A stretch of DNA of 64,000 nt, from assembly GCF_009931435.1 (NCBI RefSeq), contig NZ_CP043414.1, one strand, 5' to 3'. The translations under genes were made by a program, and so were the position numbers. The DNA is from Escherichia coli. Its GTDB lineage: Bacteria > Pseudomonadota > Gammaproteobacteria > Enterobacterales > Enterobacteriaceae. Below are positions 50,256 to 63,058 of the stretch, one piece after another. The notes below the pieces were generated by a model. It had not been told where the DNA came from and did not search any database. It worked only from the letters and a program-made list of their open reading frames with translations. Position 1 is the stretch's first letter, and the number at the start of each line of letters is the position of its first letter.

Positions 50256-50311
50256 AAAGGGCGGCAGAGCAGTCACGGAGTAAAACTGATACCGCCAAAC
50301 GTCACCAGAAA
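50256..50311 (-). ncRNA. dicF: DicF small regulatory RNA
   Basis: Minus strand reads TTTCTGGTGACGTTTGGCGGTATCAGTTTTACTCCGTGACTGCTCTGCCGCCC plus T-run, matching DicF as recalled; about 170 nt upstream of dicB. Confidence 0.75.
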
Positions 50312-55523: not shown

Positions 55524-55905
55524 AAATTGGAAAAGTGATAGTATATTCTTGTTTTTTTACTGGTAATTAAATGTTTTTAAAGTTACTAGTTCACACCTAT
55601 CGAACGTCCGGTCTTCGCCCAAAGCGGACTAGAAGGTTAGCTTGCGTCGGATTTGGCGTATTTAAAGAATCGCTGGTGGTTACTGGTTGTTGTGTTCCAT
55701 TTCTACAGAACAAAATCACAGAAACTATACCCAATAGTTGTATCTCATCAATGATGAGAGAGCCTCATATTTATCAGGACTGGTGTACGTCCAATACAGG
55801 AGGTTGTCGTGCTGGTTCTCAAATGTGCGCTGGCTATTGCAGCTGTAATGGCAATTTATTGTCTTGCTGTTGTTCTTATGGATCGCCTTTCTGATTGATT
55901 TTATA

Positions 55906-56109
55906 TTGGCCAGGTGACGGGAGTTAAGTAGAATGGCTGCGGGTGCTTGAGGCTATCTGTCTCAGGCATGAACACCAAAGGCAGATAGAGAAAAGCCCCA
56001 GTTAACATTACGCGTCCTGCAAGACGCTTAACATTAATCTGAGGCTCAATCTATGAACGGCAAATCTAGGTTAGCCTCTTACGTGCCGAAAGGCAAGGAG
56101 AAGCAGGCT
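55906..56109 (+). promoter_or_regulatory. hok promoter and 5' leader
   Basis: TTGGCC-17 bp-TAGAAT; leader GCGGGTGCTTGAGG (55939-55952) complementary to 3' CCTCAATGCACCCGC (56315-56329), consistent with hok fold-back pairing. Confidence 0.5.
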
Positions 56110-56265
56110 ATGAAGCAGCAAAAGGCGATGTTAATCGCCCTGATCGTCATCTGTTTAACCGTCATAGTGACGGCACTGGTAACGAGGAAAGACCTCTGCG
56201 AGGTACGAATCCGAACCGGCCAGACGGAGGTCGCTGTCTTCACAGTCTACGAACCTGAGGAGTAA
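56110..56265 (+). CDS. hokD: Hok/Gef-family type I toxin
   Basis: 51-aa MKQQKAMLIALIVICLTVIVTALVTRKDLCEVRIRTGQTEVAVFTVYEPEE, near-identical to K-12 HokD/RelF as recalled. Confidence 0.9.
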   Translation: MKQQKAMLIALIVICLTVIVTALVTRKDLCEVRIRTGQTEVAVFTVYEPEE

Positions 56266-56333
56266 GAGACTTGGCGAGGGAGAAATCCCTCGCCACCTCT
56301 GATGTGTCAGGCATCCTCAATGCACCCGCACTT

Positions 56334-56358
56334 AACCCGCTTCGGCGGGTTTATTTTA
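56334..56358 (+). terminator. intrinsic terminator of hok mRNA
   Basis: AACCCGC-TTCG-GCGGGTT hairpin followed by TATTTTAT. Confidence 0.7.
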
Positions 56359-59453: not shown

Positions 59454-59753
59454 AAAAATTCCTTAATACTGATAACTTGGCGCACTATACACACGTTCCT
59501 GAAGAAAGCTATAGTTTTTTGATGGGGTTGAAGATGGCTGGATGTCTAAAATAAACATTGCTTCATATGTTCAACTATGCGTTAATGATTGCGTCGGTTT
59601 GAAGAACAGACGATATACGAAGTAGTTTACTAAAGCAGTTCTCATTTCAGGTGTTATTCACTTATTCCTTCTTTGAGTCTCTCCAATTAAGTACGAAGTC
59701 GTTTCTGTTATGCAAACCATTTATGCCGAAAGGCTCAAGTTAAGGAATGTAGA

Positions 59754-59969
59754 ATGTCAAATAAAATGACTGGTTTAGTAAAATGGTTTAACGCTGATAA
59801 AGGTTTCGGCTTTATTTCTCCTGTTGATGGTAGTAAAGATGTGTTTGTGCATTTTTCTGCGATTCAGAATGATAATTATCGAACCTTATTTGAAGGTCAA
59901 AAGGTTACCTTCTCTATAGAGAGTGGTGCTAAAGGTCCTGCAGCAGCAAATGTCATCATTACTGATTAA
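59754..59969 (+). CDS. cspB: cold-shock protein CspB
   Basis: 71-aa ORF with RNP1-like KGFGFI motif; about 300-nt upstream leader typical of cold-shock genes. Confidence 0.9.
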
Positions 59970-60250
59970 AATTCATCGCTCGTCTGTATACGATAACGAA
60001 GAAGGCTGATGCCTGAGTAGAGATACGGACAGAGTAGTGAATATTGGATTTCTTTAATAAAAATTAAGGAGGTCCAATACATGAAACAATGGCCAGCATA
60101 TTTGGCAAAATCTTAATCAGGAAAAGTATGCTAACCATTGTGGTGAAGTGCAGGTTTGCTGCATGAATAGTTTTACAGCAGAAGCTAACTGCTGGCATGG
60201 CAAAACAAAGTGCGTAAGTGGATGACTCCCACAAAAAGCACCACAATCTC

Positions 60251-62278: not shown

Positions 62279-62641
62279 GGTAATATTAAATCGGAACATT
62301 TACATCGCGGAATGTAAAATTTAAATAAAAAGGACTCTTCCATGAGCCAAAATTCCTGAAATCTTAAGGGTAAGATAAAAGGTCTTAATCAGAATGACAC
62401 GTTATTATTAATAAATAAAGCTATTCTTTCATTGCTGTGTTTTTCTTTACAAAAGTAATCCTTGCTATGGGTGGTTAATCATGCGTTAATGGTGTTCTGG
62501 TTTGTTACAAATTTATCTGAAGCAGTCATTGTTATAATTTTATTATTTGTACCTCTTGAGATTTCCTTGTTGGTTTTTCTCTCTGATATTTTTTTTCGGA
62601 CCATTCTGCCCAAGGGCTAATTTCTTCAAAAGGTAATAATT

Positions 62642-62854
62642 ATGTCTAACAAAATGACTGGTTTAGTGAAATGGTTTAACCCTGAAAAAGGTTTTGGTTT
62701 CATCACGCCGAAAGATGGCAGCAAAGATGTGTTTGTCCATTTCTCAGCAATTCAGAGCAACGATTTCAAAACATTAACTGAGAATCAGGAAGTTGAATTT
62801 GGTATTGAGAACGGACCTAAAGGCCCTGCCGCTGTTCATGTAGTGGCGCTTTGA
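62642..62854 (+). CDS. cspI: cold-shock protein CspI
   Basis: 70-aa CSD ORF with KGFGFI motif and AT-rich leader. Confidence 0.9.
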
Positions 62855-63058
62855 GGTAGACAATATTACAAACCATATTCACTTTAGATGCCCGTGTTGT
62901 CATGGTTCCCAGTATAGAACATCATCTTTTGATGTTTCTGACATGAATCCTTTCGGGGCAAAATGTATCTTTTGTAAATCAATGATGATTACATTTGATA
63001 ATATTTCACAATACTTAAATGCCAGCCGTCTGTCGTTGGATTTAAAAAAGTGAAAATG

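What the first reader, a model, noticed from the sequence alone, without database searches (positions are those of the whole stretch)
55906..56358. Complete hok-type type I toxin locus that is not coupled to relBE
Hok ORF (56110-56265) has a sigma70-like promoter (TTGGCC-17-TAGAAT) about 200 nt upstream, a 5' element GCGGGTGCTTGAGG complementary to the 3' element CCTCAATGCACCCGC, and a strong intrinsic terminator, the hallmarks of a self-contained hok mRNA with fold-back inhibition. In K-12 the near-identical hokD is the third gene of relBEF (from memory); here relBE is absent and an in-frame upstream ATG at 56053 exists. An antisense Sok-like RNA would be expected opposite about 55990-56080 but I could not place its promoter.
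Basis: partly seen in the sequence, partly recalled or inferred. Interest (0 to 1): 0.5.

Follow-up and report, generated by a model that had tools for sequence, protein, structure and literature searches.

The report
Intact prophage hok/mok/sok toxin cassette
This is a complete copy of the well-known hok/mok/sok RNA-controlled toxin-antitoxin cassette inside a Qin-type E. coli prophage; most E. coli carry this form, and the relBE-linked K-12 copy is a truncated derivative.

Summary
Window 55906-56358 holds a full hok/mok/sok type I toxin-antitoxin cassette.

Folding pairs tac with fbi and sequesters the mok SD. A 3'-trimmed RNA refolds to tac/ucb plus SD/dcb, as in plasmid R1.

The missing Sok promoter is on the minus strand: TTGCCT (56096-56091), 17 nt, TAACCT (56073-56068). 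The Sok RNA runs about 56061 to 55991. This stretch is base-for-base identical to the promoter region of sokW in phage 933W, whose Sp5 counterpart was shown experimentally to be a type I TA system.

Of 5,426 complete E. coli genomes, 3,925 carry at least 80% of this locus. The K-12 relE-hokD junction is in 1,199. relBE is absent from the window.

Two asides deserve a look: a hypervariable patch exactly at the Sok 5' tail, and a conserved, unannotated 29-codon hydrophobic ORF just upstream.

The parts
55906..55934 (+). hok/mok promoter: -35 TTGGCC (55906-55911), 17-nt spacer, -10 TAGAAT (55929-55934).
   Evidence: The -10 is nearly invariant across 66 unique related loci (mean entropy 0.16 bit). 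The -35 region differs between genomic contexts. The spacing from -10 to the RNA start matches R1.
55941..56358 (+). Full-length hok mRNA, about 415 nt, from the predicted start G55941 to the U-run of the terminator.
   Evidence: The Rfam leader model starts at 55941. The fold has z = -10. The ends are inferred, not measured.
55941..55952 (+). [quoted passage not shown]
   Evidence: It pairs with 56315-56327 in the full-length MFE fold and with ucb (55993-55999) in the 3'-truncated fold. It is essentially invariant (entropy 0.009).
55994..55999 (+). ucb (upstream complementary box, the anti-SD of mok), AGCCCC.
   Evidence: It pairs with the mok SD region 56041-56046 in the full-length fold and with tac in the truncated fold. 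It is invariant.
56041..56044 (+). mok Shine-Dalgarno GAGG, 8 nt upstream of the mok ATG.
   Evidence: It aligns to the GaGG of the Rfam consensus.
56053..56265 (+). mok ORF, 70 codons: 19 codons upstream of hok, in frame with it, and sharing its stop.
   Evidence: The architecture is the same in 933W mokW and in R1, where the ATG is also 57 nt upstream and in frame. The product is 89% identical to MokW. The exact sequence occurs on at least 1,000 contigs.
56046..56067 (.). Hypervariable patch. It is the apical part of the mok-SD/dcb hairpin in hok mRNA (the Sok target loop, covering mok codons 2-5), the 5' tail of Sok on the other strand, and the 6 nt between the Sok -10 and its start.
   Evidence: Mean entropy is 1.03 bit at 56056-56067, against 0-0.2 elsewhere in the leader. 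About 20 alleles exist, each folding into a hairpin. The 12-nt Sok tails differ at 2-9 positions between main alleles.
56073..56078 (+). dcb (downstream complementary box), AGCCUC.
   Evidence: It pairs with the mok SD 56041-56046 in the 3'-truncated fold. It is invariant. The basal stem is invariant in 15 alleles, including R1 and the hokC type.
56068..56096 (-). Sok promoter: -35 TTGCCT (56096-56091), 17-nt spacer, -10 TAACCT (56073-56068).
   Evidence: Read. Its position is homologous to R1's TTGCGC-17-TATCCT. It is base-for-base identical to the 933W sokW promoter region. The -35 is invariant and the -10 is TAACCT or TAATCT in 66 loci. It falls below the threshold of the generic scan (7 of 12 matches), so one search does not list it.
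55991..56061 (-). Sok antisense RNA, about 71 nt. It has a 14-nt single-stranded 5' tail (GCCGUUCAUAGAUU), a long hairpin and a U-rich 3' end.
   Evidence: Coordinates were transferred from the sokW misc_RNA of AF125520 through alignment A1. G56061 lies 7 nt after the -10. The fold is -31.9 kcal/mol with z = -5.8. Expression was not tested here.
56096..56100 (+). hok Shine-Dalgarno AGGAG, 9 nt upstream of the hok ATG. It overlaps the Sok -35 on the other strand.
   Evidence: Homology with K-12 hokD begins here.
56110..56265 (+). hok ORF, 51 aa: MKQQKAMLIALIVICLTVIVTALVTRKDLCEVRIRTGQTEVAVFTVYEPEE.
   Evidence: Pfam PF01848 Hok/gef, E = 7.5e-22. PHROG 251 'MokW-like host killing', E = 2.8e-32. 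RefSeq annotates it as HokD. The exact sequence occurs on at least 1,000 contigs.
56272..56295 (+). 3'-UTR hairpin (10 bp, loop GAAA). It is the likely road-block that stops 3' exonucleolytic trimming.
   Evidence: It is present in all predicted folds. The role is inferred by analogy with R1 (PMC1635323 and PMC9841398).
56315..56327 (+). fbi (fold-back inhibition) element, CCUCAAUGCACCC.
   Evidence: It pairs with tac 55941-55952, with U56321 bulged. The same pairing is predicted for 933W, the P1-like plasmid copy and the R1 positive control.
56334..56358 (+). Intrinsic terminator of hok mRNA: stem AACCCGC/GCGGGTT, loop TTCG, then a T-run.
   Evidence: It is shared with K-12 hokD but replaced in 933W.

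Best explanation
The locus is an intact hok/mok/sok type I toxin-antitoxin cassette of the hokD/hokW lineage. It sits in the early-right region of a Qin-type lambdoid prophage, between the replication genes and the DUF968/RusA/Q genes.

Proposed mechanism, as in plasmid R1:

1. A weak constitutive promoter (55906-55934) makes a stable mRNA of about 415 nt.
2. The extreme 5' end of that mRNA (tac) pairs with fbi near the 3' end. In this closed form, ucb sequesters the mok Shine-Dalgarno, so neither mok nor the translationally coupled hok is translated, and Sok cannot bind.
3. Slow 3' exonucleolytic trimming removes roughly 40 nt (the terminator and fbi) and stops at the 56272-56295 hairpin.
4. 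tac then re-pairs with ucb. The mok SD moves into the SD/dcb hairpin, whose apical loop is the Sok target.
5. The unstable ~71-nt Sok RNA is made from TTGCCT-17-TAACCT on the minus strand. It docks through its 14-nt 5' tail and blocks mok, and hence hok, translation. RNase III cleaves the duplex.
6. When Sok synthesis stops, Sok decays and the stored truncated mRNA is translated. This could follow prophage induction or SOS, loss of the element, or shut-off of host transcription by an infecting phage. The 51-aa Hok then inserts into the inner membrane and collapses it.
7. In a prophage, the most likely pay-off is earlier or assisted lysis and phage release on induction, as shown for hokW-sokW of Sp5. 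Prophage retention and abortive infection are alternatives.

What is shown here: the presence, order, spacing and conservation of every element, and the two alternative predicted folds. What is inferred: transcription starts, 3' processing, Sok expression, toxicity and biological role. These inferences rest on homology to R1 and Sp5.
For: - **Sequence elements:** all are at the expected positions.
- **Leader:** Rfam RF01794 match at 110 bits, E = 1.2e-25.
- **Closed form:** the full-length MFE pairs 55941-55952 with 56315-56327, and ucb 55994-55999 with the mok SD 56041-56046. z = -10.
- **Open form:** RNAs cut at 56312 or 56300 refold to tac/ucb plus SD/dcb.
- **Positive control:** R1 gives the same 5'-3' pairing. 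A U-A pair here corresponds to a C-G pair in R1.
- **Sok RNA:** coordinates come from the 933W sokW annotation via alignment. The fold is tail, hairpin and U-run, z = -5.8.
- **Sok promoter:** homologous in position to R1's. Window 56068-56109 is identical in 933W. The -35 is invariant across 66 loci.
- **Toxin:** Hok matches Pfam PF01848 at E = 7.5e-22. Mok/Hok is 89% identical to MokW/HokW.
- **Experimental support in a close homologue** (PMC8621323). HokW is toxic. sokW made from its own promoter neutralises it, and -10 mutations abolish this. Both RNAs are seen on Northern blots in a lysogen. sokW disappears and HokW is made after mitomycin C in a RecA-dependent way. Deleting the locus halves phage release.
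- **R1 mechanism:** PMC9841398 and PMC1635323.
Against: - No expression data exist for this locus.
- The Sok -10 (TAACCT) matches only 3 of 6 consensus positions, and the generic promoter scan missed it.
- Chromosomal hokA, hokB and hokC loci were reported unable to mediate post-segregational killing or rifampicin activation (cited in preprint 10.1101/2025.08.07.668861). An intact sequence therefore does not guarantee activity.
- Hok here has Tyr, not Cys, at position 47. Full toxicity may depend on A-to-I editing.
- The locus sits in a different place in the phage genome than hokW, and its 3' terminator differs. The role in phage release may not transfer.
- MFE predictions of 400-nt RNAs are only indicative.
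Confidence: 0.9

Rival explanations
1. The cassette is sequence-intact but functionally silent. It would be a hitch-hiking remnant in a cryptic prophage, producing too little Hok or Sok to matter, as reported for chromosomal hokA/B/C loci.
For: - Chromosomal hok loci were reported not to mediate post-segregational killing and not to be activated by rifampicin (preprint 10.1101/2025.08.07.668861).
- Both promoters are weak by consensus: 9 of 12 for hok and 7 of 12 for Sok.
- Tyr47 stands in place of the second Cys.
- The host prophage looks like Qin, which is defective in K-12.
Against: - Every regulatory element is intact, and tac, ucb, dcb and the Sok -35 have zero or near-zero entropy across 66 unique loci from different contexts. 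That argues for ongoing selection.
- The closest tested homologue, with an identical Sok promoter region and the same Tyr, is active from its native single-copy prophage locus (PMC8621323).
- R1 hok is toxic from a single chromosomal copy (PMC9841398).
Confidence: 0.2
2. hok has no working promoter of its own here. It is transcribed only by read-through from the prophage early-right operon, so it behaves as a late-acting lysis accessory rather than a self-contained TA module.
For: - hok has the same orientation as the upstream replication-region genes and the downstream DUF968/RusA/Q genes.
- Only a weak terminator-like hairpin (55833-55852) lies between the upstream gene and hok.
- The -35 region is not conserved between contexts.
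Against: - The -10 TAGAAT is nearly invariant. It sits exactly 7 nt before the tac element, which must be at the RNA's extreme 5' end for the R1-type switch. The geometry is the same as in R1.
- The cassette keeps this -10 in unrelated flanking contexts: 933W, a P1-like plasmid, and several prophage backgrounds.
- hokW mRNA is detected in an uninduced lysogen and is not induced by mitomycin C.
- Read-through may occur in addition. It could even lower Sok by transcriptional interference, but that is speculation.
Confidence: 0.07
3. The Rfam 'sok' hit on the plus strand (55941-56115) is the antitoxin RNA itself. That would make the antitoxin a 175-nt sense-strand RNA rather than an antisense RNA.
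For: Rfam names RF01794 'sok antitoxin (CssrC)', and the hit is on the plus strand.
Against: - The same model hits the hok sense strand, from the tac element to the hok AUG, in plasmid R1, 933W, a P1-like plasmid and a hokC-type locus.
- In R1, Sok is experimentally a 64-nt antisense RNA (PMC1635323).
- In 933W, the annotated sokW is on the opposite strand.
- The model's consensus structure is the tac/ucb and SD/dcb 'open' form of the hok leader.
- The hit is therefore evidence for a hok leader, not for the strand of Sok.
Confidence: 0.01

Closest known systems
mokW-hokW-sokW of Stx2 phages 933W and Sp5 (VT2-Sakai) (GenBank AF125520 annotation; Takada et al. 2021, PMC8621323)
   Same: - The DNA is 92.8% identical over 90% of the query.
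- The tac, ucb, mok SD, dcb and fbi elements, the hok SD and the whole Sok promoter region are identical.
- The in-frame 70-codon mok and 51-codon hok are the same; the protein is 89% identical.
- The Sok architecture is the same.
- Both loci lie in lambdoid prophages.
   Different: - The Sok 5' tail and mok codons 2-5 differ: GCCGUUCAUAGAUU here against GUUCAGCAUGGAUU, 6 of 12 positions.
- The -35 of the hok promoter differs.
- The terminator after fbi is unrelated.
- hokW lies near the right end of the phage genome, next to tail-fibre-side genes. This locus lies between the replication genes and the Q antiterminator.
- The C-terminal five residues of Hok differ.
hokD (relF) of the relBEF operon, Qin prophage, E. 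coli K-12
   Same: - It occupies the same prophage neighbourhood: dicB/DicF upstream, DUF968 (ydfU) and the antiterminator downstream.
- The hok SD, ORF (50 of 51 aa, read from the alignment), 3' UTR, fbi and terminator are homologous (97% over window 56096-56352).
- RefSeq gives both the name HokD.
   Different: - K-12 has relB-relE inserted immediately upstream. It lacks the hok promoter, tac, ucb, the mok start and the Sok gene and its -10.
- This window has all of these and no relBE.
- The K-12 junction is found in 1,199 of 5,426 complete genomes, nearly all at 99% identity or more. The complete form is in 3,925. K-12 is therefore the derived state.
hok/sok (parB) of plasmid R1, the experimentally defined prototype
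   Same: - The order and spacing of elements are the same: -10, then 6 nt, then tac at +1; ucb; mok SD; in-frame mok 57 nt upstream of hok; dcb; fbi.
- The Sok promoter is on the opposite strand with its -10 next to dcb and its -35 over the hok SD.
- The predicted 5'-3' pairing is the same.
- Both match the same Rfam leader model.
   Different: - Only distant sequence similarity: no DNA-level hit was listed in the plasmid search beyond short leader segments. HokW and R1 Hok are 44% identical (PMC8621323).
- The Sok hairpin here carries a 16-nt insertion relative to the Rfam consensus, so Sok is about 71 nt rather than 64 nt.
- R1's locus is plasmid-borne and acts in post-segregational killing. 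This one is prophage-borne.

Membership tests
hok/sok (Hok/Gef) type I toxin-antitoxin family | A toxin ORF of about 50 aa with one transmembrane helix that matches the Hok/Gef profile. | tested here: met
   Pfam PF01848, E = 7.5e-22, full model 1-42. PHROG 251, E = 2.8e-32. NCBIfam Hok models hit at E = 6e-12 but below their curated cut-offs (45 against 73 bits). RefSeq nevertheless names the identical protein HokD.
hok/sok (Hok/Gef) type I toxin-antitoxin family | An overlapping leader ORF, mok, with its own SD upstream of hok. | tested here: met
   ATG at 56053 with GAGG 8 nt upstream, 19 codons, in frame with hok. The layout is the same in 933W mokW and R1. Translational coupling itself was not tested.
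hok/sok (Hok/Gef) type I toxin-antitoxin family | A cis-encoded antisense Sok RNA. Its promoter lies in the mok/hok-SD region. It has a single-stranded 5' tail over the mok start and a terminator hairpin. | tested here: met
   At sequence level: promoter TTGCCT-17-TAACCT at 56096-56068 (minus strand), homologous to R1's and identical to 933W's. The RNA runs 56061-55991 with a 14-nt tail, a hairpin and a U-run, z = -5.8. Transcription cannot be tested with these tools.
hok/sok (Hok/Gef) type I toxin-antitoxin family | Long-range tac-fbi pairing between the extreme 5' end and the 3' region of the full-length mRNA. | tested here: met
   12 bp with one bulge, 55941-55952 against 56315-56327. It is present in the MFE and the centroid, z = -10. 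Duplex energy is -21.5 kcal/mol. The same pairing appears in the R1 control, with one compensatory U-A to C-G difference. This is prediction only; no probing was done.
hok/sok (Hok/Gef) type I toxin-antitoxin family | Alternative pairings: ucb with the mok SD (closed form), switching to tac with ucb and mok SD with dcb (open form) after 3' trimming. | tested here: met
   Both states were recovered as MFE structures of the full-length and 3'-truncated RNAs. ucb and dcb are invariant in 66 loci. The Rfam consensus structure is the open form.
hok/sok (Hok/Gef) type I toxin-antitoxin family | Hok is toxic and Sok neutralises it. Sok is unstable and hok mRNA is stable. | not testable with these tools
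   Shown for the 89%-identical HokW/sokW (PMC8621323) and for R1. It is inferred here.
relBEF operon (K-12 arrangement of hokD) | relB and relE lie immediately upstream, with hokD as the third cistron and no hok leader. | tested here: not met
   No relB or relE DNA or protein similarity anywhere in the window. The full leader is present instead.

The most novel reading that the evidence does not exclude
The cassette is near-invariant except for a 22-nt patch (56046-56067). That patch is the Sok 5' recognition tail on one strand and the target loop of hok mRNA on the other. It exists in about 20 alleles that differ at 2-9 of the first 12 Sok nucleotides.

The most novel reading not excluded is that this is diversifying selection for orthogonal Sok specificities. 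The several hokD/hokW-type copies carried by co-resident prophages (median 2, up to 10 places per E. coli genome) would then each stay addicted to their own element, and no prophage's Sok could disarm another's Hok.

A second, smaller possibility concerns the conserved 29-codon hydrophobic ORF that ends 8 nt before the hok -35 (55809-55898). It may be an undescribed small membrane protein gene travelling with this version of the cassette.
Probability: 0.4. Interest if true: 0.4.

Novelty: already known. Interest (0 to 1): 0.1.

Why it matters
As a finding it matters little. It is one more copy of one of the best-studied type I toxin-antitoxin systems. The identical Hok and Mok sequences are each found on at least 1,000 public contigs.

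It does have some practical value for annotation:
- RefSeq labels only the 51-aa 'hokD' CDS here and misses mok, Sok and the regulatory RNA elements.
- The name hokD hides the fact that this copy is complete, whereas K-12 hokD is a 5'-truncated copy without an antitoxin.
- The Rfam 'sok' model marks the hok leader on the sense strand, not the antitoxin RNA.

The side observation on the hypervariable Sok tail gives a cheap, testable handle on cross-talk between multiple prophage-borne hok/sok copies.

Tried and rejected
1. **The generic promoter scan did not find the Sok promoter.** On the minus strand of 55980-56100 it listed nothing, because the promoter scores 7 of 12 and the threshold is 9 of 12. 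I located it by homology instead.
2. **The Rfam 'sok' hit is not evidence for the antitoxin's strand.** The model lies on the hok sense strand even in R1.
3. **Column-wise covariation in the variable hairpin could not be shown.** RNAalifold on 15 alleles kept only the invariant 5-bp SD/dcb stem, with no compensatory pairs. Each allele folds on its own, but in different registers, so I make no covariation claim.
4. **The co-residence test was uninformative.** All 4 same-genome pairs in the IMG/VR sample carry different alleles, but chance alone gives about 0.55.
5. **The weak Rfam hits are chance.** ceN48 and rsmX (E about 0.15, far below gathering) were dismissed; the rsmX hit is just the terminator hairpin.
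6. **No family was found for the 29-aa ORF**, the upstream DUF5677-type ORF or the downstream 92-aa ORF in NCBIfam. PHROGs gave only unknown-function families for the latter two.
7. **No second copy or relBE.** I looked for a second hok copy and for relBE in the window and found neither.
8. **Searches not run.** I did not run the large metagenome or genome scans or structure prediction. The identity of the locus was already settled.
Full report
**1. Observation.**

- The 51-codon hok ORF runs 56110-56265.
- An in-frame ATG at 56053 gives a 70-codon ORF.
- The promoter is TTGGCC (55906-55911), 17 nt, TAGAAT (55929-55934). The consensus scan also reports it.
- GCGGGTGCTTGAGG at 55939-55952 is complementary to CCTCAATGCACCCGC at 56315-56329, with one bulged T.
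- A terminator hairpin at 56334-56351 is followed by a T-run.

This is not chance.
- The stretch 55941-56115 matches Rfam RF01794 at 110 bits (gathering 59, E = 1.2e-25).
- The 420-nt RNA folds at -179.7 kcal/mol, z = -10, with the 5' end paired to the 3' end.

**2. What it is.**

A search of 5,426 complete E. coli genomes finds at least 80% of the 461-bp locus in 3,925 of them. The median is 2 places per genome and the maximum is 10. RefSeq annotates the CDS as hokD.

Among phage records, 102 match. These include 933W (AF125520) and VT2-Sakai/Sp5, where the homologous locus is annotated mokW, hokW and sokW.

The record identical to the window is a Qin-type prophage of E. coli O20:H12. Its gene order is dicB, ydfA, repressor/Cro-like genes, YdaT, replication genes, DUF977, DUF5677, hokD, DUF968, RusA, Q antiterminator, tRNAs and essD. 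DicF and two cspA-type leaders in the window agree with this.

In K-12, relB, relE and hokD are consecutive. Homology to the window starts only at the hok Shine-Dalgarno, window 56096. K-12 hokD therefore lacks the promoter, tac, ucb, mok start and Sok. relBE is absent from the whole window.

The relE-hokD junction occurs in 1,199 of 5,426 genomes, nearly all at 99% identity or more. It is a single derived event, and the complete locus is the common form.

**3. Anatomy compared with the experimentally defined systems.**

Alignment with 933W (A1) transfers the sokW coordinates to window 56061 to 55991 on the minus strand.

Reading that strand gives TTGCCT (56096-56091), a 17-nt spacer, TAACCT (56073-56068), and G56061 seven nucleotides further on. 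In plasmid R1 the homologous positions read TTGCGC-17-TATCCT. In 933W the whole stretch 56068-56109 is identical to the window.

The predicted Sok RNA has a 14-nt single-stranded 5' tail, a long hairpin and a U-rich end (-31.9 kcal/mol, z = -5.8). This matches the R1 description of a stem-loop plus an 11-nt recognition tail (PMC1635323).

The in-frame ATG at 56053 is mok. R1 also has its mok ATG 57 nt upstream of hok and in frame with it. 933W annotates mokW the same way.

The -10 to +1 geometry of the hok promoter (TAGAAT, 6 nt, GGGUGCUUGAGG) mirrors R1 (TATGAT, 6 nt, GGCGCUUGAGG).

**4. RNA switch.**

For the full-length RNA (55941-56358), the MFE structure pairs tac 55941-55952 with fbi 56315-56327. 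It also pairs ucb 55994-55999 with the mok SD region 56041-46.

RNAs cut at 56312 or 56300 mimic the ~39-nt 3' trimming described for R1. Their MFE switches to tac/ucb and mok-SD/dcb (56073-56078).

These are the closed and open conformations described for R1 (PMC9841398). The R1 sequence, folded the same way as a positive control, gives the same 5'-3' pairing. A U-A pair here corresponds to a C-G pair in R1.

The Rfam model called 'sok' hits the hok sense strand, from tac to the hok AUG, in R1, 933W, a P1-like plasmid copy and a hokC-type locus. Its consensus structure is the open leader. It is therefore a model of the hok leader and says nothing about the strand of the antitoxin.

**5. Protein.**

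Mok/Hok matches Pfam PF01848 (E = 7.5e-22) and PHROG 251 'MokW-like host killing'. It is 89% identical to MokW/HokW. The exact Hok and Mok sequences are each on at least 1,000 public contigs.

**6. Mechanism and function.**

The best-supported mechanism is the R1 paradigm set out in the Best explanation section.

The biological role is inferred from the closest tested relative, hokW-sokW in Sp5 (PMC8621323).
- HokW is toxic. sokW expressed from its own promoter neutralises it, and mutations in the sokW -10 abolish that.
- Both RNAs are present in an uninduced lysogen.
- sokW vanishes and HokW appears in the inner membrane after mitomycin C, in a RecA-dependent way.
- Deleting the locus halves phage release.

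Caveats:
- Chromosomal hokA/B/C loci were reported inactive for post-segregational killing.
- The position in the phage genome differs from that of hokW.
- Hok has Tyr47 where a second Cys may be needed.
- Nothing has been measured for this locus.

My confidence is about 0.9 that this is a structurally complete hok/mok/sok cassette working by the R1-type RNA switch. It is lower, about 0.6-0.7, that the cassette is active in vivo in this prophage.

**7. Conservation and two asides.**

I retrieved 80 IMG/VR loci encoding 98-100% identical Hok. They give 66 unique complete cassettes, 3 relE-truncated copies and 2 rearranged copies.

Across the complete cassettes:
- tac, ucb, dcb and the Sok -35 have essentially zero entropy.
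- The Sok -10 varies only between TAACCT and TAATCT.
- The hok -10 is nearly fixed.
- Positions 56046-56067 are hypervariable, with a mean of 1.03 bit at 56056-56067.

That patch covers Sok nucleotides +2 to +6 and neighbouring positions. It is also mok codons 2-5 and the apical loop of the SD/dcb hairpin. About 20 alleles exist. Each folds into a hairpin, and their 12-nt Sok tails differ at 2-9 positions.

The retrieval was by Hok protein identity. The low entropy of the CDS is therefore partly a selection artefact, but the contrast within the non-coding leader is not.

The tail is the recognition element in R1, so the pattern suggests specificity classes. I could not test whether co-resident copies avoid sharing alleles: 4 of 4 pairs differ, which is uninformative. 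RNAalifold found no column-wise covariation in the apical part.

The second aside is a 29-codon ORF at 55809-55898, encoding MLVLKCALAIAAVMAIYCLAVVLMDRLSD.
- It has a GGAGG Shine-Dalgarno 5 nt before its GTG and ends 8 nt before the hok -35.
- It keeps its frame in 17 diverged loci while the sequence upstream of it diverges.
- Its variable sites fall 4/5/13 by codon position, and one locus has an in-frame 3-nt deletion.
- The matching RefSeq records listed carry no annotation there.
- It belongs to no NCBIfam or PHROG family.
- It appears once in GenBank as a hypothetical protein, on 146 contigs.

**8. Verdict.**

The locus is already known: mokW/hokW/sokW-type, the intact form of hokD. It is very common, so its interest as a finding is low.

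Noticed in passing
window 56046-56067: This is a hypervariable patch inside an otherwise near-invariant hok leader. About 20 alleles occur across 66 unique related loci. The patch coincides with the Sok 5' recognition tail, mok codons 2-5 and the target loop. It may define Sok specificity classes among co-resident prophage copies.
   Followed up: partly
window 55809-55898 (+): A conserved, unannotated 29-codon hydrophobic ORF (MLVLKCALAIAAVMAIYCLAVVLMDRLSD) with a GGAGG SD and a GTG start, ending 8 nt before the hok -35. Variation is concentrated at third codon positions (4/5/13), and one locus has an in-frame 3-nt deletion. It matches no known family and is probably a real small membrane protein gene.
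   Followed up: partly
window 55941-56115 (+); also L004 232-403, L001 2521-2695, L005 313-487, L006 388-540: Rfam RF01794, named 'sok antitoxin', matches the hok sense strand from the tac element to the hok AUG, including in plasmid R1. It models the hok mRNA leader in its open form, not the antisense Sok RNA. Annotations derived from it would put 'Sok' on the wrong strand.
   Followed up: yes
window 56246-56252 (CUACGAA; A56249): The Tyr47 codon UAC is followed by G and lies within CUACGAA, the sequence of the tRNA-Arg(ACG) anticodon loop (recalled from memory, not checked with a tool). This fits the TadA A-to-I editing (Tyr to Cys) reported for hokB and, according to a recent preprint, for hokC/D/E. 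The motif is kept in K-12 hokD and 933W hokW.
   Followed up: no
L003 2250-2530 (K-12 relE-hokD junction), compared with window 56096: The relBE insertion that truncates the hok leader is present in 1,199 of 5,426 complete E. coli genomes, nearly all at 99% identity or more. That indicates a single recent event. The truncated hokD keeps fbi and the terminator but has no tac, mok start or Sok.
   Followed up: yes
window 50259-50310 (-), 59593-59985 (+), 62496-62881 (+): DicF sRNA and two cspA-type 5' UTR thermoregulator matches. Together with the dicB...essD gene order in the identical RefSeq record, they identify the window as a Qin-type lambdoid prophage.
   Followed up: no
window about 55900-55925, compared with L001 and L007-L086: The left boundary of the shared cassette falls inside the hok promoter spacer. 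Homology between genomic contexts starts at GTTAAGTAGAAT, so different contexts supply different -35 hexamers (TTGGCC or TTGGCG here, TTTGCG in the 933W type). The right boundary falls just after fbi in 933W, which has a different terminator.
   Followed up: partly
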